Part shown: positions 13,720-62,720 of the stretch, piece after piece | How positions within the stretch are numbered: position 1 is the first letter of the stretch | How the letters are laid out: each line of letters begins with the position of its first letter | Position numbers and translations under genes: made by a program | Notes under the pieces: generated by a model | Database searches by the model: none | Told to the model about the DNA's origin: nothing | The model's input: only the letters and a program-made list of their open reading frames with translations | From: Escherichia phage vB-Eco-KMB40 | Sequence record: OR539220.1 | DNA: 64,000 bases | Reading direction: 5' to 3' (one strand)

Positions 13720-14057
13720 TCACAAGATGTAGATGAACAACTAGAATCACAAGAACTTCCACATGAATCGCCCGTCCATACATGAACAGGAACATTAGTA
13801 TCATATGAATCAGAACTAGACTGTGTATTCTGTGTATTAGATGATGTAGTAGGTGTTGACCAGCGCCAAGGATTTTTATAATATTCTTGGGCTTCTTCAT
13901 AAGTCATAGTAACTGCTTCTACTGTTCCATCTTCCATATAAACATACTCAACTACAGTTAAAGGAAGGTAGTCATTTGAAATAGGAACTACACCTTCCCC
14001 AGGAGTCGTAGAGAAAAAATCCGTAAAGAAACTTTTAAACCAATTAAAGATAAACAT
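13716..14057 (-). CDS. hypothetical protein with Cys-rich C-terminus (113 aa)
   Basis: C-terminus [18 protein letters not shown]. Confidence 0.5.
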
Positions 14058-14263
14058 TACAAAAAGCCTCTTTTGAATTCAACTTGCTTCTCACCATAAT
14101 CATATCGAATCTCTGCATTAAATTCGACAGAGCCATCTGCGTACATCATAAATGAATGCACAACAACTTCTGTAGACCATGGTTGTAGTTCATATTTCTT
14201 CATTACATGTCGTGAAATGATAATATCTAAATCTTCATTTGGTTTAATCCAACGATTTAACAT
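14057..14263 (-). CDS. hypothetical small protein (68 aa)
   Basis: ORF immediately upstream of soc. Confidence 0.45.
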   Translation of the reverse strand: MLNRWIKPNEDLDIIISRHVMKKYELQPWSTEVVVHSFMMYADGSVEFNAEIRYDYGEKQVEFKRGFL

Positions 14264-14289
14264 AGTGCTCTCCTCTATAAGATAATTCT

Positions 14290-14319
14290 ATTATACCATA
14301 CTCATTTTGGAAAGTAAAC
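14290..14319 (-). promoter_or_regulatory. early sigma70-type promoter
   Basis: GTTTAC at 14314-14319, TATAAT at 14290-14295. Confidence 0.55.
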
Positions 14320-14334
14320 CATTTAAATGAAAAA

Positions 14335-14354
14335 AGGACTCCCGAAGGAGTCCT
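14335..14354 (-). terminator. intrinsic terminator hairpin (UUCG loop) after soc
   Basis: AGGACTCC-cgaa-GGAGTCCT, 8-bp stem, followed by U5 on transcript. Confidence 0.65.
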
Positions 14355-14361
14355 TGAATTA

Positions 14362-14598
14362 TTAACCACCTATTTCTGTGGGCGTAAACATTGCAGCATT
14401 CTTAGTTTTCCAGTCAGCTGCATCAGAAACTACAGTAGAATATGCCGCCTTTTCAGAAGGAAAGGTCTGATAATGAGAATCTGCAATACGATGCTCGTTA
14501 GAATAGATTTCAAATGGAACAGAAACTTCCATACCTTTAACTTCTTTGCCTTCACCTGCTGGATGAGTAAAGGTCTTGATGTTAACGAAACCACCCAT
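14362..14598 (-). CDS. soc: small outer capsid protein Soc (78 aa)
   Basis: size and sequence consistent with T4 Soc; late promoter and SD AAGGAG upstream. Confidence 0.8.
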   Translation of the reverse strand: MGGFVNIKTFTHPAGEGKEVKGMEVSVPFEIYSNEHRIADSHYQTFPSEKAAYSTVVSDAADWKTKNAAMFTPTEIGG

Positions 14599-14629
14599 AA
14601 TAAACTCCTTTATTGTTTAATTACAGGTG

Positions 14630-14637
14630 TATTTATA
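14630..14637 (-). promoter_or_regulatory. late promoter TATAAATA for soc
   Basis: exact TATAAATA on minus strand about 32 nt upstream of soc ATG. Confidence 0.65.
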
Positions 14638-14639
14638 AC

Positions 14640-14780
14640 TTACAATTTAGCGGCTTTCCAGAGTTGTTCAATAATCTCTTGGTCTATTTCTTTAGTTATT
14701 TCATTACGTAATAAAGCAGTAAGGGCTTTCGCCCTTTTCTTATTCAACTTTTTGAGTTGACGTTTATTTAAACGAGACAT
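14640..14780 (-). CDS. hypothetical basic small protein (46 aa), not in ORF track
   Basis: MSRLNKRQLKKLNKKRAKALTALLRNEI...; ATG overlaps gene 56 stop; occupies soc-56 interval where T4 has segF. Confidence 0.4.
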   Translation of the reverse strand: MSRLNKRQLKKLNKKRAKALTALLRNEITKEIDQEIIEQLWKAAKL

Positions 14781-15298
14781 TAATAACCTCGGTCCTGACG
14801 AGCAAAGTTCTCGGCATTTTTCAGGTAATACAGTTTAAAGATTTCTTCTGCTGTAAGACCAAGACCTTGGAACATGTTCAGAACGAAATGGAGAATATCA
14901 ATCATTTCAAATTTAATTTCCAATTGGTCTTGTGGAGACAAATCAGTAATCAGAGTTTCACGGCGTTCACCATGCTGCGACTTCCAAGGTTTCCATACAG
15001 CAGATGCATCTTTTTCGCCGTTGCTCATACCACCAAGAGAAGTCAAAAGTTCGCGGAATTCATCATCAATATAATCTTTCTGATTGCGCAGCCAATCAAC
15101 AACTTCACCTGCAGTAGCCAAATCATCAGGATGACGGTTATATTCAGGTTTATCTTTAGCTAAACGAACCTGCAAAGATTTCTGCATATCAAGCATAACT
15201 TGCAGCGGGTCTTTTTCATCACCGAGAATATCCCAGTATTCATTTTGAGCTTTATCAGCGCCTTCGATCAGTTGTGAACATTCATTAAAGTATGCCAT
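14780..15298 (-). CDS. 56: dCTP pyrophosphatase (172 aa)
   Basis: N-terminus MAYFNECSQLIEG and length as T4 gp56; track ORF extends further upstream in frame. Confidence 0.8.
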   Translation of the reverse strand: MAYFNECSQLIEGADKAQNEYWDILGDEKDPLQVMLDMQKSLQVRLAKDKPEYNRHPDDLATAGEVVDWLRNQKDYIDDEFRELLTSLGGMSNGEKDASAVWKPWKSQHGERRETLITDLSPQDQLEIKFEMIDILHFVLNMFQGLGLTAEEIFKLYYLKNAENFARQDRGY

Positions 15299-15332
15299 TA
15301 TTTTTCCTTTCAATTCATGGATTAGTAGATTA

Positions 15333-15356
15333 ATTATACAATAAATATATAAAGCA
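15333..15356 (-). promoter_or_regulatory. candidate middle promoter (MotA box TGCTTTA, 11-nt spacer, TATAAT)
   Basis: minus strand TGCTTTA at 15350-15356, TATAAT at 15333-15338; upstream of gene 56. Confidence 0.45.
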
Positions 15357-15369
15357 ATAAGGAGGACAT

Positions 15370-15570
15370 ATGGTACAAAAATTAATGGCACTTATTAATG
15401 CCATAAAAGGTAATAAAAAGCGTATAGCTTTTACTATTTCTGCTATGGTAGGAATTTTACTCTGGAACTTTATTTTATCACCTGTTGCAATTGCGCATGG
15501 TATTAATATTCCAGTAGTTACTCTTGATACATTCGTAGATTTAGCATTTGCTTTAGTTGGGTTAATTTAA
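15370..15570 (+). CDS. small hydrophobic protein (66 aa), only convincing plus-strand gene here
   Basis: strong SD AAGGAGG 4 nt before ATG; two hydrophobic segments; fills the 56-61 intergenic gap; stop overlaps primase stop. Confidence 0.5.
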   Translation: MVQKLMALINAIKGNKKRIAFTISAMVGILLWNFILSPVAIAHGINIPVVTLDTFVDLAFALVGLI

Positions 15571-16595
15571 ATCTTAGCATATTTAGATAACCGCATTTTA
15601 GCCATCAACCCCTGGGCAATATTATTTTTCATATATTCCATAATTTGTTCAGGGGTTGCACCTTCCTTTCTAATCATATCATTAACATCTTTTGATTTCC
15701 AGGGAGATTTATCCCAAAACATAACCCTTTCTCCTGCATCAACTAATTTAGTCATTCGCTTAATAGTGTCAGGATGACGAGGTTCATTATCTAAAACCCA
15801 CACACGTCTATCTTTAAATGGAACAACTTCTAGGTCTAATTGACCACCCGTAATAGCTATACCATTTTCAATAAAAAGTGAATCTATAGGTCCTTCTAGA
15901 ACATATACATCGCCATCTTTAACTCGTTCGACTCCATATATTTTTGTTGCCTCAGGATAAGCCTTAATGGTGATATATTTTTGAGGAGCATCTTTCTTTA
16001 ATGCACGTCCTTGAAAAGACTCAGCTTTTCCATTAGCATTATAAATTGGAATAACAAGACGAGGCTCAGAAATTTCCTTTTTGTATGTTCCCGGTGCTAT
16101 GCTATTAACTAATTTAGGCCATTCGGTTGTAAACCAAAGATATTTCCATTTATCCTTTGGAATACAACGAGCTTTTACATATTTTATAATTGGATGGTCT
16201 TCCGCCAGTTTATCTAATCTAACGCATGACGGAAGAGATTTAATTATTTTCTTCTCAGGTTGTTTAGGAAGTTCTTTAGGTTTTTCTACTGGACGACTTT
16301 TACCTTTTTCTTTTCTTATTTCAAAGATATACTCACGATATAAATCAGGTTCAAACTCCTTTAAATATATTCCGATTGGCGCATGATAGTTACAGTTATA
16401 ACAATGAATATTTCCTTCATTATTATCACCATAATACCATCCACGAGCTTTATTCTGGTCGGTTTTTGAATCTCCACAAACAGGACATCTAAACCGCAAT
16501 TTAAAAGTTGAACTATTATTTACTTGTGTGAATTTAGGTAAATGAGCTAATGCACGGTATGCAAACTCATTATCAATCCAAGGTATTGATGACAT
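15567..16595 (-). CDS. 61: DNA primase (342 aa)
   Basis: zinc ribbon CPVCGDS...CYNC, 342 aa as T4 gp61. Confidence 0.9.
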   Translation of the reverse strand: MSSIPWIDNEFAYRALAHLPKFTQVNNSSTFKLRFRCPVCGDSKTDQNKARGWYYGDNNEGNIHCYNCNYHAPIGIYLKEFEPDLYREYIFEIRKEKGKSRPVEKPKELPKQPEKKIIKSLPSCVRLDKLAEDHPIIKYVKARCIPKDKWKYLWFTTEWPKLVNSIAPGTYKKEISEPRLVIPIYNANGKAESFQGRALKKDAPQKYITIKAYPEATKIYGVERVKDGDVYVLEGPIDSLFIENGIAITGGQLDLEVVPFKDRRVWVLDNEPRHPDTIKRMTKLVDAGERVMFWDKSPWKSKDVNDMIRKEGATPEQIMEYMKNNIAQGLMAKMRLSKYAKI

Positions 16596-16761
16596 TTTTA
16601 CTCTTCTTTTTCTTTAGATTCCTCTTTTTCTTTTTAGGAATCTGTTCAGGGCCTTTATTTACTACAGCGCCTGACGTTGTTCCAGTAGAGATATTTTCAG
16701 GATTACCACCTGAATCTCCAGCGACCATATCTTCTTTGATAAATTCTTTATATGTTTTCAT
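16573..16761 (-). CDS. 61.1-position protein with capsid-targeting-like N-terminus (62 aa)
   Basis: N-terminus MKTYKEFIKE resembles internal-protein targeting sequence MKTYQEFIAE; SD GAGG. Confidence 0.5.
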   Translation of the reverse strand: MKTYKEFIKEDMVAGDSGGNPENISTGTTSGAVVNKGPEQIPKKKKRNLKKKKSKNVINTLD

Positions 16762-16762
16762 A

Positions 16763-17389
16763 TTAACCTCTATTCATAAAAGCATTAAAAATTTGGTCAT
16801 CAATAGAAACATTTACGTTAGACTGTTTTTCAGATGGCAATTCATATCCACATATTACAATTTTATGATCAATATCAAAATACACAGAAGCAATATGATT
16901 AATGATATTTTCAGTGAAGTCTAAATCGACATCAATATCTTTTTGACCACAGCCCAAAGGATAAATAATGCGAGTAATTCGATTATCTTTAACAAATATT
17001 CCACCGACATACTCTGTACTGCGTTTAAAGTCTACACGCCGACGAAATGAAAAATATTCAGGCTCTTTATGAGCTCGGCTCATAGGACACAACGAATAAC
17101 TAGAATAAGAGATGTCAAATCCTACGCCTTCGATATGAGCCAAAGTGTCATGATTAAACCAATTATAATCGTACGCCAAATCCATTAGATTATAATATGT
17201 AAAAGGCACCGGATTAACATCATTAGTCACAAGCATGTAATTAGCAACTGCTATAATTTCATTGTTTTTAACGAATACAAACCGTGATTGATGCGAATGA
17301 CCTGGACCCGCGTTTTCACGATTAATGATATAACACTGGGCACCTTTATATTTGTATGTATCTTTGCACTTGTGCATTTGATAGAGCAT
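16763..17389 (-). CDS. 61.2-position protein (208 aa); possible AdfA homologue
   Basis: 208-aa ORF downstream of primase; name by position and recollection only. Confidence 0.35.
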   Translation of the reverse strand: MLYQMHKCKDTYKYKGAQCYIINRENAGPGHSHQSRFVFVKNNEIIAVANYMLVTNDVNPVPFTYYNLMDLAYDYNWFNHDTLAHIEGVGFDISYSSYSLCPMSRAHKEPEYFSFRRRVDFKRSTEYVGGIFVKDNRITRIIYPLGCGQKDIDVDLDFTENIINHIASVYFDIDHKIVICGYELPSEKQSNVNVSIDDQIFNAFMNRG

Positions 17390-17682
17390 TATTCACCTAC
17401 CACTTCAGCGATGATATTTTTGTTATTAAAGTTTTTATCGCAATACAGAACATAATTATACTGCATTACACCACCAGACTTAAGCTGTTTTTGCACTTCA
17501 GCTTTCATTTCAGGACGATCGCGCTCAACAATATTCATAATATCCGCTTCAATTTGAGTTTCAACCTCAGTCTGATCAGCAGTCATAGACCATTCGCACA
17601 AATCTTTATCATAACCTGCCATAGCAGGCTGAGCAGCACAAGAAGCTAAAGCAAAAATTGTAGCAAAGATAAATTTTTTCAT
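17389..17682 (-). CDS. predicted lipoprotein (97 aa)
   Basis: signal peptide with lipobox LASC. Confidence 0.5.
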   Translation of the reverse strand: MKKFIFATIFALASCAAQPAMAGYDKDLCEWSMTADQTEVETQIEADIMNIVERDRPEMKAEVQKQLKSGGVMQYNYVLYCDKNFNNKNIIAEVVGE

Positions 17683-17710
17683 GATAATCTCCTCAGTAGT
17701 TTATGTTTAT

Positions 17711-17740
17711 ATAGTATCTCAATTTCCAACAAAAGTAAAC
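17711..17740 (-). promoter_or_regulatory. early sigma70-type promoter
   Basis: GTTTAC at 17735-17740, TACTAT at 17711-17716. Confidence 0.5.
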
Positions 17741-17742
17741 AG

Positions 17743-18000
17743 TTATTTTAAAACTTCTGTGTAATCACATGTTACAAACTGTTTCTCTAGCTTGACGATT
17801 TTACGAAAGTATCTTTTACATTGACGAATCTGTCGCTTAGTAGGGCGCACAGCAAACTTAATAAATTCCACTCGACCAAATGGAGGGCTTTCTTCTGATG
17901 GAATATCTAACACCAATTCCCACGTATCCGCAATAAGTGCTTTGAATTGAGTATTTTTCCTGACGTTATACGGAGTAGGTTTAAATAAAACAATATGCAT
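17743..18000 (-). CDS. tifA: 61.4-position basic protein (85 aa); possible TifA
   Basis: ATG at 18000 with SD GAGGA overlapping dmd stop gives 85 aa; immediately downstream of dmd; name from recollection. Confidence 0.4.
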   Translation of the reverse strand: MHIVLFKPTPYNVRKNTQFKALIADTWELVLDIPSEESPPFGRVEFIKFAVRPTKRQIRQCKRYFRKIVKLEKQFVTCDYTEVLK

Positions 18001-18001
18001 A

Positions 18002-18184
18002 TTATCCTCGGCAATCCACTTCGCACACTTTCTTGTCATCAATGAAAGCTTTAACTAATGCTTTATTAACTTCAGCATATTGAGTAGTAGCCCATTGAAC
18101 GTCATCTTTCATCATTGTGATTTCTTTAGTAAACATGCTTTCATTCTTAAACCACCCCATAAAAACTACCTTTACCAATTCCAT
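18002..18184 (-). CDS. dmd: Dmd, anti-RnlA/LsoA antitoxin mimic (60 aa)
   Basis: 60-aa ORF between 61.4 and 41, size and position of T4 dmd. Confidence 0.7.
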   Translation of the reverse strand: MELVKVVFMGWFKNESMFTKEITMMKDDVQWATTQYAEVNKALVKAFIDDKKVCEVDCRG

Positions 18185-18213
18185 AACAATCTCCTCATTT
18201 AACCAACAAGACT

Positions 18214-18243
18214 ACTATACCATAGTCTTGTCAGTTTGTAAAC
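18214..18243 (-). promoter_or_regulatory. early sigma70-type promoter for dmd
   Basis: GTTTAC at 18238-18243, TATAGT at 18214-18219, SD AGGAG downstream. Confidence 0.55.
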
Positions 18244-19670
18244 TAAAATTTTAATTCATTTGCCAAAGCATCTAACTGAGCTCGAGTGGATTCATTTCTT
18301 TGATAGCGATTCTGTTCAGCCTGAATCTGTTGTGAACCTGCTACTTCACTCACTTCGGTTGGAGTAGAATCTTGTTCAATTTCTACCCATTTTTGATTTC
18401 CTTTTTGAACACCCATCAAAAACTTATTCCACTTATTCTTATCACCATATCGTGATTTGATTTGCTTAATAAGTTGTTGTTCAGCAGCTGCCAACTCCTC
18501 GGTTTCAATGACCGCAAGCATAAAATCGGCTGTCGCTGGAAGACCAGCAGATTCTGCGATATCACTCATGTTAACATCAGAAGAATCCCAAGCTTGTTTA
18601 CCAACCTGTGCTGCAGTCCAAAGAACAGTTTCGGTTTCAACAGCCAGAGCACGCAATTCCTCTGCGATAGCTTTAACAGTTGTGTAACTATTTTCTGAAT
18701 AAACTCTAATGCGGCAAGATTTACAAATACCTAGATAGTCGACAATAATGATTGTTGGAACAAAATTCTTCTTGAGCTTTAATTCATTTAAAAGTGATCG
18801 AAATGTATTAGCGTCTGCTCCACCAGTAGGATATTGTTTAACGATTAAACGACCGAGAGTAGATTTCTCACGCCATTTTTCCATTTTTCCTTTATACTCA
18901 GCGTAAGAAATATGCCCATCATCAATGTCATCAAGAGAAACATCGAGCATATTAGCGTCAATACGTTTAGCACAGACTTCTTCTGCCATTTCCATGGAGA
19001 TATAAAGAACGTTATGACCAAGCTGCAAATAATCTGCTGCTAATGAACAAAGTCCTAATGATTTACCAACGTTAACGCCAGCCATTAAAACGTTCAGTGT
19101 TCCTGTTTCAGCTCCGCCTTTAGTAATTTTATTCAAAATACGAAGTTTAAATGGAACTTTACGAGCTTTATTCATATAAGATAGCCAACGTGCTTCGTAG
19201 TCATCCATCCAATCATGACCAACGTAGCTATCAAATGAAATTGATAATGCTTGGCGCATGATGTCAGGAATAGCACCAACATCCGGCATTTTCTTATTTC
19301 GTTTTTCCGGAGGAAGTTCAGCATTAGTTTGAATTTCGATTATTTTAGACGTAGCATTAAACATCGCCCTTTGCTGAACATATTTTTCTGTTTCTTTTAC
19401 TAACCAGCTGTGGTCTTCTGGAGAATCGGCTAGTTTTGAAATAAGTGTTTTTACACCAGAATATTCCGTTTCAGTAAATGAACTATTTTCTAATGCAACA
19501 TTTAACGCATTAATAGATGGAACGCTATGATACTCATTAACATGAGATTTAATTAATTTGAACGTATTTTTAGCTGGACCACTTTCAAAATATTCTGAAT
19601 CCATATATGGCCAAACTTTTGAAAAATAAGCTTGATCAAATATGAGATGAGAAAGAATAATTTCTACCAC
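18243..19670 (-). CDS. 41: replicative DNA helicase, DnaB-like (475 aa)
   Basis: 475 aa as T4 gp41; Walker A GVNVGKS. Confidence 0.9.
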   Translation of the reverse strand: MVEIILSHLIFDQAYFSKVWPYMDSEYFESGPAKNTFKLIKSHVNEYHSVPSINALNVALENSSFTETEYSGVKTLISKLADSPEDHSWLVKETEKYVQQRAMFNATSKIIEIQTNAELPPEKRNKKMPDVGAIPDIMRQALSISFDSYVGHDWMDDYEARWLSYMNKARKVPFKLRILNKITKGGAETGTLNVLMAGVNVGKSLGLCSLAADYLQLGHNVLYISMEMAEEVCAKRIDANMLDVSLDDIDDGHISYAEYKGKMEKWREKSTLGRLIVKQYPTGGADANTFRSLLNELKLKKNFVPTIIIVDYLGICKSCRIRVYSENSYTTVKAIAEELRALAVETETVLWTAAQVGKQAWDSSDVNMSDIAESAGLPATADFMLAVIETEELAAAEQQLIKQIKSRYGDKNKWNKFLMGVQKGNQKWVEIEQDSTPTEVSEVAGSQQIQAEQNRYQRNESTRAQLDALANELKF

Positions 19671-19679
19671 ACTTACTCC

Positions 19680-20024
19680 TTAAAAGAATTTAAACTTTTT
19701 CTTTGACCTTTTATTAAATGCATCTTGTAGTTGCATTGTAATACATTTTTCTACATGAGGAGCTAACTCAGCTTTTCTTTCTTGGTCAAGAACAGCAAAG
19801 TCCATTACAACCTTTCCATTAACCCAATCTAATTTTGTCACATACACAATGTGTGTAGAACCATCTTCTAGTTTAATGACAATCTCCTGGATAACATTTT
19901 CCATGGCAGATTTAATTATCTTAAGAGATTCATTAAAAAGACGTTCTTTTCTTTCTTCTTCCCCCTCCGAAGAGGGGGATTCATCGATAATTTCTAGATC
20001 TAAATCTAAATCATCTTTATTCAT
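19680..20024 (-). CDS. 40: gene 40-position protein (114 aa)
   Basis: position between 41 and uvsX; ATG at 20024, track start is GTG. Confidence 0.5.
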   Translation of the reverse strand: MNKDDLDLDLEIIDESPSSEGEEERKERLFNESLKIIKSAMENVIQEIVIKLEDGSTHIVYVTKLDWVNGKVVMDFAVLDQERKAELAPHVEKCITMQLQDAFNKRSKKKFKFF

Positions 20025-55861: not shown

Positions 55862-55869
55862 TATTTATA
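55862..55869 (-). promoter_or_regulatory. late promoter TATAAATA upstream of rI.1/rI
   Basis: exact TATAAATA on minus strand between tk stop and rI.1 start. Confidence 0.55.
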
Positions 55870-61230: not shown

Positions 61231-61704
61231 TTATTTGAACGATTTAACGTACTGAATAGAACCTTTACTATTTACAAAGGCAATTTTACCATTTTTATTA
61301 TACATGGTAGCAGTACGTTGATAACCATAAGTTTGTTTACCAGATTGATAACCAACTAATGCGAAATTATCTTCGCCCATTTTATTCTGTTTAGCGCGAA
61401 TGCGTTCATGACCATGTGCCATAAGAACCTTAGCATCACCGGTTGCAATGGATCGACGAGTTTTTTCATCTTCAACTGTATTAACAAAGTCGTCAAATGA
61501 ATCAAATTTAGCATGTGATTTATTATACAGTTTTCCATCTACTGCATAATTATATCCCTGTACATCCATCTCAACTTCTGTACCATCATCCAATACAGCA
61601 GTGATTTTTTGACCTTTTTTAAATTTCAAAAGATCAGTAAAAGATTCAGCAATAATTTGAGAATTAATAGCTGCTTCAGTGATAAATTCTTGATATGTTT
61701 TCAT
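61231..61704 (-). CDS. internal-protein-like protein with capsid targeting sequence (157 aa)
   Basis: N-terminus MKTYQEFITEA matches T4 IP targeting sequence MKTYQEFIAEA; adjacent to denV. Confidence 0.6.
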   Translation of the reverse strand: MKTYQEFITEAAINSQIIAESFTDLLKFKKGQKITAVLDDGTEVEMDVQGYNYAVDGKLYNKSHAKFDSFDDFVNTVEDEKTRRSIATGDAKVLMAHGHERIRAKQNKMGEDNFALVGYQSGKQTYGYQRTATMYNKNGKIAFVNSKGSIQYVKSFK

Positions 61705-61713
61705 ATGTTTCCT

Positions 61714-62130
61714 TTAAATGTAAATATTTTTACCGTAATACTTATACCAATGTGGTTTCATTAAAATTTTTTCATCAAGTCGTTGTTGACTCAATTTAAT
61801 AGCTGATTTGCATGGATTATAATCATTTTTCCATTCTACTGGAATATCGCTGATGTCAGGAACTTCAGTATCTTTTATACTGAACCCTCGTTTTAAGCAT
61901 TCCGTTATAATGTCTAATTGACGCTTTCGCAAAAATTCTAACTTATCGTAAAAGAACGTAACATGACCAGAACCTAAAATAAACTCGGAAGATATTTTAA
62001 AATCTTTAACGCGCTTACCGTTTGCCACATGCTTACGAACTATACCAAAAACACGTGGCAATTCACGATATTCTGCAATTAAATGCTGATCAGTAAGTTC
62101 AGATACTAAAGTCAAATTAATACGAGTCAT
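61714..62130 (-). CDS. denV: endonuclease V, pyrimidine-dimer DNA glycosylase (138 aa)
   Basis: [12 protein letters not shown]...[10 protein letters not shown]...WYKYYGK; 138 aa as T4 DenV, visibly diverged. Confidence 0.85.

Positions 62131-62189: not shown

Positions 62190-62720
<531 letters not shown>

What the first reader, a model, noticed from the sequence alone, without database searches (positions are those of the whole stretch)
16573..16761. 61.1-position protein also begins with a capsid-targeting-like sequence
The 62-aa ORF begins MKTYKEFIKE, the same pattern as the internal-protein targeting sequence, followed by a Gly/Ser-rich linker and a Lys-rich tail (KKKKRNLKKKKSK). A small basic protein packaged with DNA would be a new internal-protein candidate in the primase region.
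Basis: inference. Interest (0 to 1): 0.5.

Follow-up and report, generated by a model that had tools for sequence, protein, structure and literature searches.

The report
Capsid-protein fragment gene beside phage primase
The small gene just upstream of the primase gene in this T6-like phage encodes a conserved stand-alone copy of the cleavage site and "N-fist" arm of the phage's own major capsid protein, behind a head-targeting-type leader, so it is probably a small, overlooked head-associated peptide rather than a DNA-binding basic protein.

Summary
The ORF is real (16573..16761, minus strand). It is gene 61.1 of a T6/RB18-like T-even phage.

**Leader.** MKTYKEFIKE closely matches the capsid-targeting sequences (CTS) of internal proteins. 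It is 9/10 identical to RB69 ORF124c, and all four experimentally mapped positions are kept.

- The long Lys-rich tail comes from a 1-nt deletion in an A-run that I saw only in T6, G28 and G2540-3. T4 and RB18 end ...PKKKKEESKEKEE.
- The "Gly/Ser linker" is the conserved core. Residues 11-36 align with the N-fist (aa 66-91) of major capsid protein gp23, with the gp21 cleavage sites in register (HMM E 1e-11; hhalign 97%; gp23 is the only PDB hit).

**Family-wide:**
- Leaders vary: 10 aa in T-evens, a ~100-aa unknown domain elsewhere.
- [LIVM]-x-Glu precedes the core in 130 of 136 sequences.
- Core dN/dS is about 0.15.
- The gene always sits just upstream of primase.
- It was not detected among cyanophage records, whose sampled gp23 lacks the N-fist.

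**Best reading (inferred, ~0.4):** a prohead-targeted peptide cleaved by gp21.

**Against:** early transcription, no virion detection on record, and dispensable in a T4 knockdown screen.

The parts
16573..16761 (-). Gene 61.1 homologue, 62-aa frameshift allele (stop codon 16573-16575)
   Evidence: ORF list. 100% identical to a protein cluster named for phage T6. phrog_1823 at E 3.8e-32.
16767..16770 (-). Shine-Dalgarno GAGG, 5 nt (16762-16766) upstream of the ATG
   Evidence: Read directly from the sequence.
16732..16761 (-). Leader, codons 1-10, MKTYKEFIKE. CTS-like. Predicted gp21 cleavage after Glu10 (I-K-E|D).
   Evidence: Motif scan. Comparison with T4 and RB69 internal-protein leaders. 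CTS determinants from PMC9026906. Conservation of [LIVM]-x-E. Cleavage itself is inferred.
16648..16731 (-). Conserved core, codons 11-38, DMVAGDSGGNPENISTGTTSGAVVNKGP. Paralogue of gp23 aa 66-93 (N-fist 66-91 plus GP).
   Evidence: BLASTP 46% identity, E 6e-9. Family HMM against gp23, E 1e-11. hhalign 97.3%. Only PDB hit is gp23. dN/dS about 0.15. N-fist defined as aa 66-91 in PMC7136217.
16576..16647 (-). Variable tail, codons 39-62. EQIPKKKK is shared with T4; RNLKKKKSKNVINTLD is frameshift-derived.
   Evidence: DNA alignment with T4 and RB18. Family tails compared.
16625..16629 (-). A5 run where T4 and RB18 have A6: the site of the 1-nt deletion
15567..16595 (-). Primase gene 61. Its first 23 nt are overlapped by this allele of 61.1. 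It is the invariable downstream neighbour of 61.1.
   Evidence: Primase lies downstream in 54 of 54 IMG/VR loci. Same order in Aeromonas phage 31, KVP40 and AB-Navy4.
18214..18242 (-). Early-promoter-like site (TTTACA-17-TATAGT, with TG) upstream of dmd. Likely source of the transcript that reaches 61.1.
   Evidence: Consensus scan. An early promoter upstream of dmd is stated in PMC9391042. T4 61.1 RNA is classed as early.

Best explanation
Gene 61.1 encodes a small protein with three parts:
- a short cleavable leader, which in T-even phages is an internal-protein-type capsid-targeting sequence;
- a 28-residue core that is a paralogue of the first residues of mature major capsid protein gp23*, i.e. 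the N-fist (aa 66-91) plus Gly-Pro;
- a short lysine-rich tail of variable sequence.

**Shown:** the homology to gp23 aa ~51-101, the in-register alignment of the two cleavage sites, conservation of the site, protein-level purifying selection, and restriction to the phage groups sampled whose gp23 carries the N-fist.

**Inferred:** the protein is carried into the assembling prohead core by its leader. In other genera, the ~100-aa N-terminal domain and/or the gp23-like segment itself may do this. The prohead protease gp21 then cuts after the conserved Glu (Glu10 here). This releases a ~4.5-5.5 kDa peptide whose new N-terminus matches that of gp23*.

**Speculative last step:** the peptide, disordered on its own, docks where a gp23 N-fist or N-arm docks, on the scaffold or on the capsid lattice. 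It would act as an accessory, non-essential head component or assembly modulator. Alternatively it stays with the DNA through its K-run.
For: **Homology to gp23**
- BLASTP of T4 gp61.1 aa 2-38 against gp23 aa 57-93: 46% identity, E 6e-9.
- The 61.1 family HMM hits gp23 at E 1e-11. This is the only significant non-self hit among 1802 ORF segments.
- hhalign probability 97.3%, E 1.6e-11.
- gp23 is the only PDB family hit, E 1.8e-7.
- In 1.84 billion representative proteins, the recognisable hits other than 61.1 forms are gp23-type capsid proteins plus a few long multi-stretch repeat proteins I did not examine.
- The long-form profile extends the match to gp23 aa 51-101.

**Register**
- E10|D11 aligns with E65|A66. 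The N-fist is aa 66-91 (PMC7136217).

**Cleavage motif**
- Glu at P1 in 135 of 136 distinct sequences, and L/I/V/M/F at P3 in 130 of 136, despite unrelated leaders.
- This matches known gp21 sites: ITE-6 and LTE-619 in Alt (PMC5694885), and LIE-9 near the gp21 N-terminus (PMC9026906).

**Leader**
- Matches CTSs of T4 and RB69 internal proteins, with determinants 4, 7, 8 and 10 kept.
- All four internal proteins in the test set rank in the top 8 sub-threshold hits of the family HMM.
- A CTS encapsidates 'virtually any protein' it is attached to (PMC7697877).

**Selection and distribution**
- dN/dS is about 0.15 with synonymous sites near saturation.
- 61.1 is found in 1389 phage records. Cyanophages are absent from the ten most frequent genera. 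A gp23 query finds 376 Synechococcus records.
- 73 of 73 sampled distant gp23 homologues lack the N-fist.

**Weak cognate co-variation**
- 61.1 cores are slightly more like their own phage's N-fist than like others': 14.90 versus 14.39 identities, P 0.004. Rare residues are shared at the same columns.

**Consistent observations**
- Early RNA class is also seen for ipI, ipII and ipIII.
- Dispensability in the laboratory fits an accessory head protein such as the internal proteins.
- AF2 predicts no autonomous fold: pLDDT 60. The N-fist itself is disordered until capsid expansion (PMC9546572).
Against: - No record of gp61.1 in T4 heads was found in the papers I could search. T4 time-course proteomics lists its protein class as NA.
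- There is no exact late promoter (TATAAATA) anywhere in the 41-61 cluster. Supply at the time of head assembly would depend on early protein persisting.
- In Mosigvirus the 61.1 leader (MKSFKEVMNE) has Val at CTS position 7, while that phage's internal proteins keep Phe. Other clades have quite different leaders. The leader is therefore not uniformly a T4-type CTS.
- Asp or Glu at P1' is not among the gp21 sites I could document.
- A ~45-aa unfolded peptide could escape through the 14-17 A prohead pores (PMC9546572).
- The capsid cryo-EM papers I word-searched contain no mention of 'extra density', 'unassigned density' or 'unidentified' density. I did not read them through.
- The invariable position next to primase is not explained by a head function.
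Confidence: 0.4

Rival explanations
1. Primase-linked function. gp61.1 is an accessory of the gp41-gp61 primosome, or its translation serves mainly to couple or regulate translation of gene 61. The gp23 similarity would be an old exaptation with no capsid role.
For: - Primase lies immediately downstream on the same strand in 54 of 54 IMG/VR loci, mostly within 90 nt. The same holds in Aeromonas phage 31, KVP40, AB-Navy4 and two metagenomic contigs.
- In Aeromonas phage 31 the order is simply 41-61.1-61.
- The RNA is early.
- The K-rich tail could bind nucleic acid.
- In T4 the 61.1 stop codon is 2 nt from the gene 61 ATG.
Against: - The phyletic pattern follows the capsid N-fist, not primase. 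61.1 was not detected among cyanophage records, which as T4-like phages are expected to carry primase and helicase (my knowledge, not tested here), and sampled distant gp23 lacks the N-fist.
- Strong amino-acid-level selection on the gp23-like core, and conservation of a protease-type site, are not needed for translational coupling.
- The frameshift allele changes the stop/start geometry without apparent cost.
- Knockdown of 61.1 translation gave no fitness defect.
- From my own knowledge: the T4 replisome is reconstituted in vitro without gp61.1.
Confidence: 0.15
2. Counter-defence decoy. This early-made fragment mimics the exposed, still uncleaved N-terminal segment of unassembled gp23. It would occupy or blunt a host sensor or protease that recognises the capsid protein.
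For: - In T-evens the gene lies in the dmd-tifA-sp-adfA cluster, described as an anti-toxin-antitoxin island whose other genes are 'attractive anti-toxin candidates' (PMC9391042; Pfam AdfA and Spackle).
- It is expressed early.
- It is dispensable on a laboratory host.
- gp23 is a documented trigger of at least CmdTAC (PMC11618068).
Against: - Outside the T-evens the gene is not embedded in such an island.
- The core is highly conserved across genera with different hosts, unlike arms-race proteins.
- Titrating the CmdC chaperone should activate CmdTAC rather than block it.
- From memory, not checked: the Gol peptide that triggers Lit lies at about aa 93-122, downstream of the shared segment.
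- No sensor of gp23 aa 51-93 is known to me.
Confidence: 0.12
3. Transient assembly or protease modulator. gp61.1 enters or contacts the prohead, competes with the gp23 N-terminus for scaffold (gp22) or for gp21, is cleaved, and leaves. It would not be a component of the mature virion.
For: - The same sequence evidence as the best explanation.
- The uncleaved gp23 N-terminal region is thought to contact the scaffolding core, and cleaved peptides leave through 14-17 A pores (PMC9546572).
- This would explain the absence from virion inventories.
Against: - No phenotype on knockdown.
- Early rather than late expression.
- Nothing distinguishes this from the best explanation except the fate of the peptide.
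Confidence: 0.15
4. Decaying remnant of a partial duplication of gene 23 with no function, like the alt.-1/alt.-2 duplication noted in the T4 annotation.
For: - It is a fragment of a larger gene.
- It is short and dispensable.
- The tail tolerates a frameshift.
- T4 carries other partial duplications (annotation notes on alt.-1 and alt.-2).
Against: - Intact in 1389 phage records across many genera.
- Core dN/dS about 0.15 (maximum 0.49) while synonymous sites are near saturation.
- Invariant columns across short and long forms.
Confidence: 0.03

Closest known systems
T4 internal proteins IPI, IPII, IPIII and the other CTS-bearing proteins of T-even internal-protein loci
   Same: - N-terminal leader MKT[YF][QK]EF..E, with an I/L-x-E gp21 site at residue 10.
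- Early RNA class.
- Non-essential in the laboratory.
- Small.
   Different: - The mature part is conserved across genera rather than hypervariable.
- It lies next to primase, not in the e/denV or 57B internal-protein loci.
- The mature part is a ~45-aa peptide predicted to be disordered, homologous to a capsid-protein segment.
- Many homologues lack the T4-type leader.
- Packaging has not been demonstrated.
Major capsid protein gp23 of T4: propeptide end, gp21 site and N-fist (aa ~51-101)
   Same: - About 50% identity over the N-fist.
- Same spacing from the cleaved Glu to the G-D motif.
- The match continues into the last ~15 propeptide residues in long forms.
- A basic stretch follows G-P: VRR in gp23, KKK in 61.1.
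   Different: - It lacks all of the HK97-fold body.
- GDSGG replaces GDHGY in most lineages.
- It ends in a charged tail.
- It is expressed early from the replication-gene region.
Partial gene duplications in T4 such as alt.-1 and alt.-2 (copies of the start of alt, including its MELITE leader)
   Same: A short ORF that copies the N-terminal, cleavage-site-bearing part of a head protein (one search shows alt.-1 starting MELITELFD like Alt).
   Different: 61.1 is ancient, widespread and under purifying selection. The alt duplications are described as T4-local.
Long N-terminal propeptides of head proteins in giant phages (phiKZ, SPN3US)
   Same: In long-form 61.1 homologues, a ~100-aa N-terminal domain precedes an x-x-E site, as in proteins processed by gp21-related proteases (PMC5694885).
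   Different: There is no sequence relation. Processing of the long forms is untested.

Membership tests
CTS-bearing internal head protein of T-even phages | N-terminal ~10-residue capsid-targeting sequence with an aromatic residue at position 4 and Phe at position 7 | tested here: met
   MKTYKEFIKE has Y4 and F7. It is 9/10 identical to RB69 ORF124c, and T4 gp61.1 is 7/7 identical to the start of T4 IPI. Determinants are taken from PMC9026906. Met for Tequatrovirus; not met in several other clades.
CTS-bearing internal head protein of T-even phages | gp21 cleavage site (L/I-x-E) at the end of the leader | tested here: met
   I8-K9-E10. Family-wide, Glu at P1 in 135 of 136 and a hydrophobic P3 in 130 of 136. 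This is sequence evidence only.
CTS-bearing internal head protein of T-even phages | Physically packaged in the head and injected with the DNA | not testable with these tools
   No virion MS record was found. T4 infection proteomics gives protein class NA.
CTS-bearing internal head protein of T-even phages | Mature part hypervariable between related phages, and located in the internal-protein loci | tested here: not met
   Core dN/dS is 0.15, with near-identical cores across genera. The gene is always next to primase.
Paralogue of the gp23 N-fist segment | Significant sequence similarity to gp23 aa 66-91 | tested here: met
Paralogue of the gp23 N-fist segment | Maturation cleavage site in the same register | tested here: met
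   E10|D11 aligns with E65|A66 without gaps. Actual cleavage is not testable here.
Paralogue of the gp23 N-fist segment | Occurs only where gp23 has an N-fist | tested here: met
   - The 61.1 HMM hits 8 of 8 close gp23 homologues and 0 of 73 distant ones, which lack the segment.
- 61.1 is not seen among cyanophage records although gp23 is.
- This is indirect, because absence was judged by tblastn.
Paralogue of the gp23 N-fist segment | Adopts the N-fist conformation on a capsid or scaffold partner | tested here: inconclusive
   The AF2 monomer is low-confidence (pLDDT 59.9, pTM 0.19).

The most novel reading that the evidence does not exclude
gp61.1 would be a trans-acting N-fist: a gp21-matured peptide that docks on the capsid lattice or scaffold at sites meant for the gp23 N-terminus. 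Candidate sites are positions where no neighbouring fist is supplied, near the gp24 vertices or the portal.

Its leader would also show that the T-even capsid-targeting sequence is itself derived from the ten residues preceding the gp23 cleavage site. CTS positions 4, 7, 8 and 10 correspond to gp23 F59, F62, L63 and E65. If so, internal-protein targeting evolved by copying the capsid protein's own scaffold/protease recognition element.
Probability: 0.15. Interest if true: 0.75.

Novelty: new variant of a known kind. Interest (0 to 1): 0.5.

Why it matters
T4 head assembly is one of the best-studied assembly pathways, and the CTS is used as an engineering tool.

A conserved and so far uncharacterised gene that combines a CTS-type leader, a conserved gp21-type site and a copy of the capsid protein's N-fist would:
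- add a component or modulator to that pathway;
- offer a natural probe of what the N-fist binds;
- give a testable route to the origin of the CTS.

Practically, it also shows two annotation problems:
- The names 'major capsid protein' and 'head morphogenesis protein' that pipelines give to this 54-aa ORF reflect a real but partial homology.
- The T6 allele is a frameshift variant.

Tried and rejected
- **Protein family libraries.** Pfam, NCBIfam and PADLOC-independent family scans gave no Pfam or NCBIfam hit for short or long forms. PHROGs gave only unknown-function families, plus a weak 24-residue hit to an 'internal virion protein' family.
- **Late promoter.** No exact TATAAATA lies near the gene. 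One-mismatch hits are at chance level.
- **RNA element.** No Rfam hit in 14000-20000.
- **Structure.** The AF2 model was too poor to justify a fold search.
- **Leader co-variation with each phage's own internal proteins.**
  - IMG/VR scans for the MVKQLKQLVE and Aeromonas-type leaders found nothing useful.
  - The only direct comparison, RB69, argues against strict co-variation.
- **N-terminal domain of long forms.** No hit in the window or T4 loci, in the PDB, or in Pfam.
- **gp23 set from the word-indexed protein search.** It returned only 11 fragments. IMG/VR loci were used instead.
- **Pairing metagenomic gp23 (P0155) with 61.1 (P0078) through isolate genomes.** This failed.
- **Literature.** Searches for 'gp61.1', 'gene 61.1' and '61.1'+'61.2' found only gene tables. 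The Miller 2003 T4 genome review is not held.
- **Sequencing-error explanation for the frameshift.** Rejected, because independent T6 records and two other phages share it.
Full report
**What the window is**

The region 15500-17700 is 98-99% identical to Tequatrovirus genomes (RB18, T6 and relatives). On the minus strand the gene order is:
- helicase 41 (18243..19670)
- dmd
- 61.4/tifA
- sp (17389..17682; Pfam T4_Spackle)
- 61.2/adfA (16763..17389; Pfam AdfA)
- the 62-codon ORF 16573..16761
- primase 61 (15567..16595)

The ORF is therefore gene 61.1. It is 100% identical to a protein cluster named for phage T6.

**Observation check**

The ORF, its start and its GAGG ribosome-binding site are as stated. 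The leader MKTYKEFIKE is not a chance match:
- The CTS-type pattern occurs only twice in six-frame translation of the 64 kb. Both are at gene starts. The other is the internal-protein-like gene 61231..61704 next to denV and e.

The tail is a different matter:
- A DNA alignment with T4 and RB18 shows a single missing A in the run at 16625-16629.
- T4 and RB18 gp61.1 are 54 aa, ending PKKKKEESKEKEE.
- In the window the frame shifts after KKKK, giving RNLKKKKSKNVINTLD and an ORF that overlaps gene 61 by 23 nt.
- The allele is real but rare. Two independent T6 records, vB_EcoM-G28 and G2540-3 share it. All other listed rows among 476 T-even records carry the extra base. IMG/VR holds 0 deletion versus 4 canonical copies.

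**The core is a copy of the gp23 N-fist**

The first hint was that several sources name these proteins 'major capsid (domain-containing) protein'. I then tested the similarity directly:
- T4 gp61.1 aa 2-38 aligns without gaps to T4 gp23 aa 57-93: 46% identity, E 6e-9.
- An HMM of 88 family members finds gp23 at E 1e-11. It is the only significant non-self hit among 1802 ORF segments of the window plus 61 kb of T4.
- Profile-profile comparison gives 97.3% probability.
- gp23 chains are the only hits in the whole PDB.
- In an exhaustive search of 1.84 billion representative proteins, the recognisable hits other than 61.1 forms are gp23-type capsid proteins, for example a 533-aa one matched at aa 61-101. 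A few long multi-stretch repeat proteins also appear; I did not examine them.

gp23 is cut by the prohead protease gp21 after Glu65, and the first 26 residues of mature gp23* (66-91) form the 'N-fist'. The N-fist is disordered inside the unexpanded prohead. After expansion it contacts four subunits and helps form the Soc site (PMC7136217, PMC9546572, PMC9958956). In the alignment, Glu10|Asp11 of gp61.1 coincides exactly with Glu65|Ala66.

**Family anatomy**

I collected 139 distinct homologues. tblastn finds the gene in 1389 phage records: Escherichia, Klebsiella, Shigella, Acinetobacter, Aeromonas, Enterobacter and others.

There are two architectures:
- *Short forms.* Tequatrovirus, Mosigvirus and the Klebsiella phages have a 9-13-aa leader. 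Aeromonas phages have about 20 aa.
- *Long forms.* RB43-like, PG7-like, AB-Navy4, KVP40, MP1 and RB49-like phages carry a conserved ~100-aa N-terminal domain of unknown function. It matches phrog_2086 and phrog_18642 and has no Pfam, NCBIfam or PDB match. This domain is not found elsewhere in the window or the T4 loci.

Whatever precedes it, the core (D/E)MVAGDSGG..NIA.G.T.GAV...GP follows a Glu in 135 of 136 sequences, with L/I/V/M/F two residues before it in 130 of 136. This is the form of documented gp21 sites: ITE-6 and LTE-619 in Alt, and LIE-9 near the gp21 N-terminus. The long-form profile extends the gp23 match back to aa 51, into the propeptide.

Selection and context:
- The 27-codon core has a median dN/dS of 0.15 (maximum 0.49) with mean pS 0.69. 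The protein itself is under selection, not an overlapping signal. There is no Rfam hit.
- The tail keeps only a K/R run.
- Primase is the downstream neighbour in 54 of 54 IMG/VR loci, usually within 90 nt. The upstream side varies from helicase directly adjacent to 2 kb of accessory genes.

**The leader as a CTS**

For:
- T4 gp61.1 and T4 IPI share MKTFKEF, encoded by 22 identical nucleotides.
- The window's leader differs from RB69 ORF124c (MKTYKEFIAE) at one position. RB69 has seven such proteins in its two internal-protein loci.
- The residues mapped as important for targeting (4, 7) and processing (8, 10) are all present (PMC9026906).
- The four internal proteins in my test database all fall in the top eight sub-threshold hits of the 61.1 HMM.

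Against:
- Only 60 of 139 homologues start MK[TS][YF].
- In Mosigvirus the 61.1 leader has drifted (MKSFKEVMNE; Val at position 7), although that phage's internal proteins keep the consensus.

A side observation: the ten residues before the gp23 cleavage site (AQAFGSFLTE) share exactly CTS positions 4, 7, 8 and 10.

**Does the core track its own capsid protein?**

I paired 61.1 and gp23 from the same contigs.
- In 20 lineage representatives, cognate pairs share 14.90 of 28 aligned core positions, against 14.39 (sd 0.19) after shuffling the pairing, P 0.004.
- Rare residues are shared at the same columns. Lys/Arg replaces Asn in two lineages in both proteins. Asn at one column occurs in a single lineage in both.
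- The effect is small.
- Three pairs (L247/L177, L248/L174, L257/L164) rest on the same sample rather than the same contig; two of them (L247/L177, L257/L164) are among the 20 representatives, and these two supply half of the Lys/Arg co-occurrence and the whole of the single-lineage Asn one.
- Seven closer pairs showed nothing, because their gp23 fists hardly vary.

I treat this as suggestive of a shared partner or of occasional gene conversion.

**Expression and phenotype**
- The best sigma-70-like site in the cluster lies just upstream of dmd. This matches the early promoter described in PMC9391042.
- T4 61.1 RNA is classed as early. Its protein class is NA. ipI, ipII and ipIII are early RNA, late protein (PMC9697503 supplements).
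- There is no exact late promoter in the cluster.
- In the CRISPRi-ART screen of T4, 61.1 is 'Not Fit' (score -0.84, P 0.93, four guides; PMC11879866 supplement). It is therefore dispensable on a laboratory host.
- AF2 with a 24-sequence alignment gives pLDDT 59.9, with only a short leader helix.

**Interpretation**

The shown facts are:
- homology to gp23 aa 51-101, with the cleavage sites in register;
- a conserved gp21-type site;
- a CTS-type leader in T-evens;
- purifying selection;
- distribution restricted to the phage groups sampled whose gp23 has the N-fist: 0 of 73 distant gp23 homologues have it, and 61.1 was not detected in cyanophage records although gp23 is.

The most economical reading is that the protein is brought to the prohead core and cut by gp21. 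The released peptide would begin like gp23*.

What the peptide then does is speculation. It could dock like an N-fist, modulate scaffold or protease, or stay with the DNA through its K-run.

The rivals are:
- a primase-linked role, supported only by the invariable synteny and contradicted by the phyletic pattern;
- an early capsid-mimic decoy, suggested by the anti-defence neighbours in T-evens but not elsewhere;
- a transient assembly modulator.

A dead relic is excluded by the selection data.

**Comparison with the known, and novelty**

The gene is annotated everywhere as hypothetical or mislabelled. I found no paper discussing it beyond gene tables.
- It works like a CTS-bearing head protein in its leader and cleavage site.
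- It fails two features of the internal-protein family: hypervariability and locus.
- Packaging is untested.

It is best described as a new variant of the family of gp21-processed head-associated proteins: a free-standing N-fist paralogue.

The emphasis on a basic tail is an artefact of one allele.

Noticed in passing
window 61231-61704 (-): A 157-aa protein starting MKTYQEFITE|A, next to denV (61714-62130) and lysozyme e (62190-62684). It is an internal-protein-locus gene with a canonical CTS. Its mature part is unlike T4 IPII or IPIII.
   Followed up: partly
window 16763-18184 (-): A run of counter-defence genes lies upstream of 61.1: adfA/61.2 (anti-DarT), sp (spackle), 61.4/tifA (anti-ToxN) and dmd (anti-RnlA). 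This is the 'anti-TA island' of PMC9391042.
   Followed up: partly
window 14630-14637, 55862-55869, 62711-62718 (-): The late-promoter octamer TATAAATA occurs only 3 times, against 10.5 expected. Two of the three sit just upstream of late genes: soc at 14598 and e at 62684. The motif seems counter-selected elsewhere.
   Followed up: no
window 15370-15570 (+), between genes 56 and 61: T4 has dam and segF between 56/soc and 61. This phage has neither here. Instead it has a 66-aa hydrophobic plus-strand ORF, like RB32ORF030w in RB18.
   Followed up: no
L149, L163, L167, L173, L005 and others (long 61.1 forms, residues 1-~105): A conserved ~100-aa N-terminal domain (invariant L19, W27, A29, G39, H58, K65) is fused to the 61.1 core in many non-T-even genera. 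It has no match in Pfam, NCBIfam or the PDB. Its function is unknown.
   Followed up: partly
T4 gp23 aa 56-65 (L003:5111-5140) versus internal-protein leaders: The ten residues before the gp23 cleavage site (AQAFGSFLTE) share CTS positions 4, 7, 8 and 10 with MKTYQEFIAE. This suggests that the CTS mimics the capsid protein's own pre-cleavage segment.
   Followed up: partly
L164:2210-2947; P0114, P0132, P0118, P0125, P0133: Some homologues carry a further ~90-100-aa C-terminal extension after the K-run. One (P0092) has a Cys4 zinc-ribbon-like N-terminus. The core module is therefore combined with several other domains.
   Followed up: no
L006:1460-1500 (Aeromonas phage 31): A GC-rich hairpin (AAGCCCTC-TTTT-GAGGGCTT) lies directly upstream of 61.1, between helicase 41 and 61.1. 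It hints that 61.1-61 may form their own transcription unit there.
   Followed up: no
L002:2765-3121 (RB18): RB18 and many relatives carry an extra ORF ('some similarity to gp61.2') between 61.1 and 61.2. It is absent from this window and from T4.
   Followed up: no
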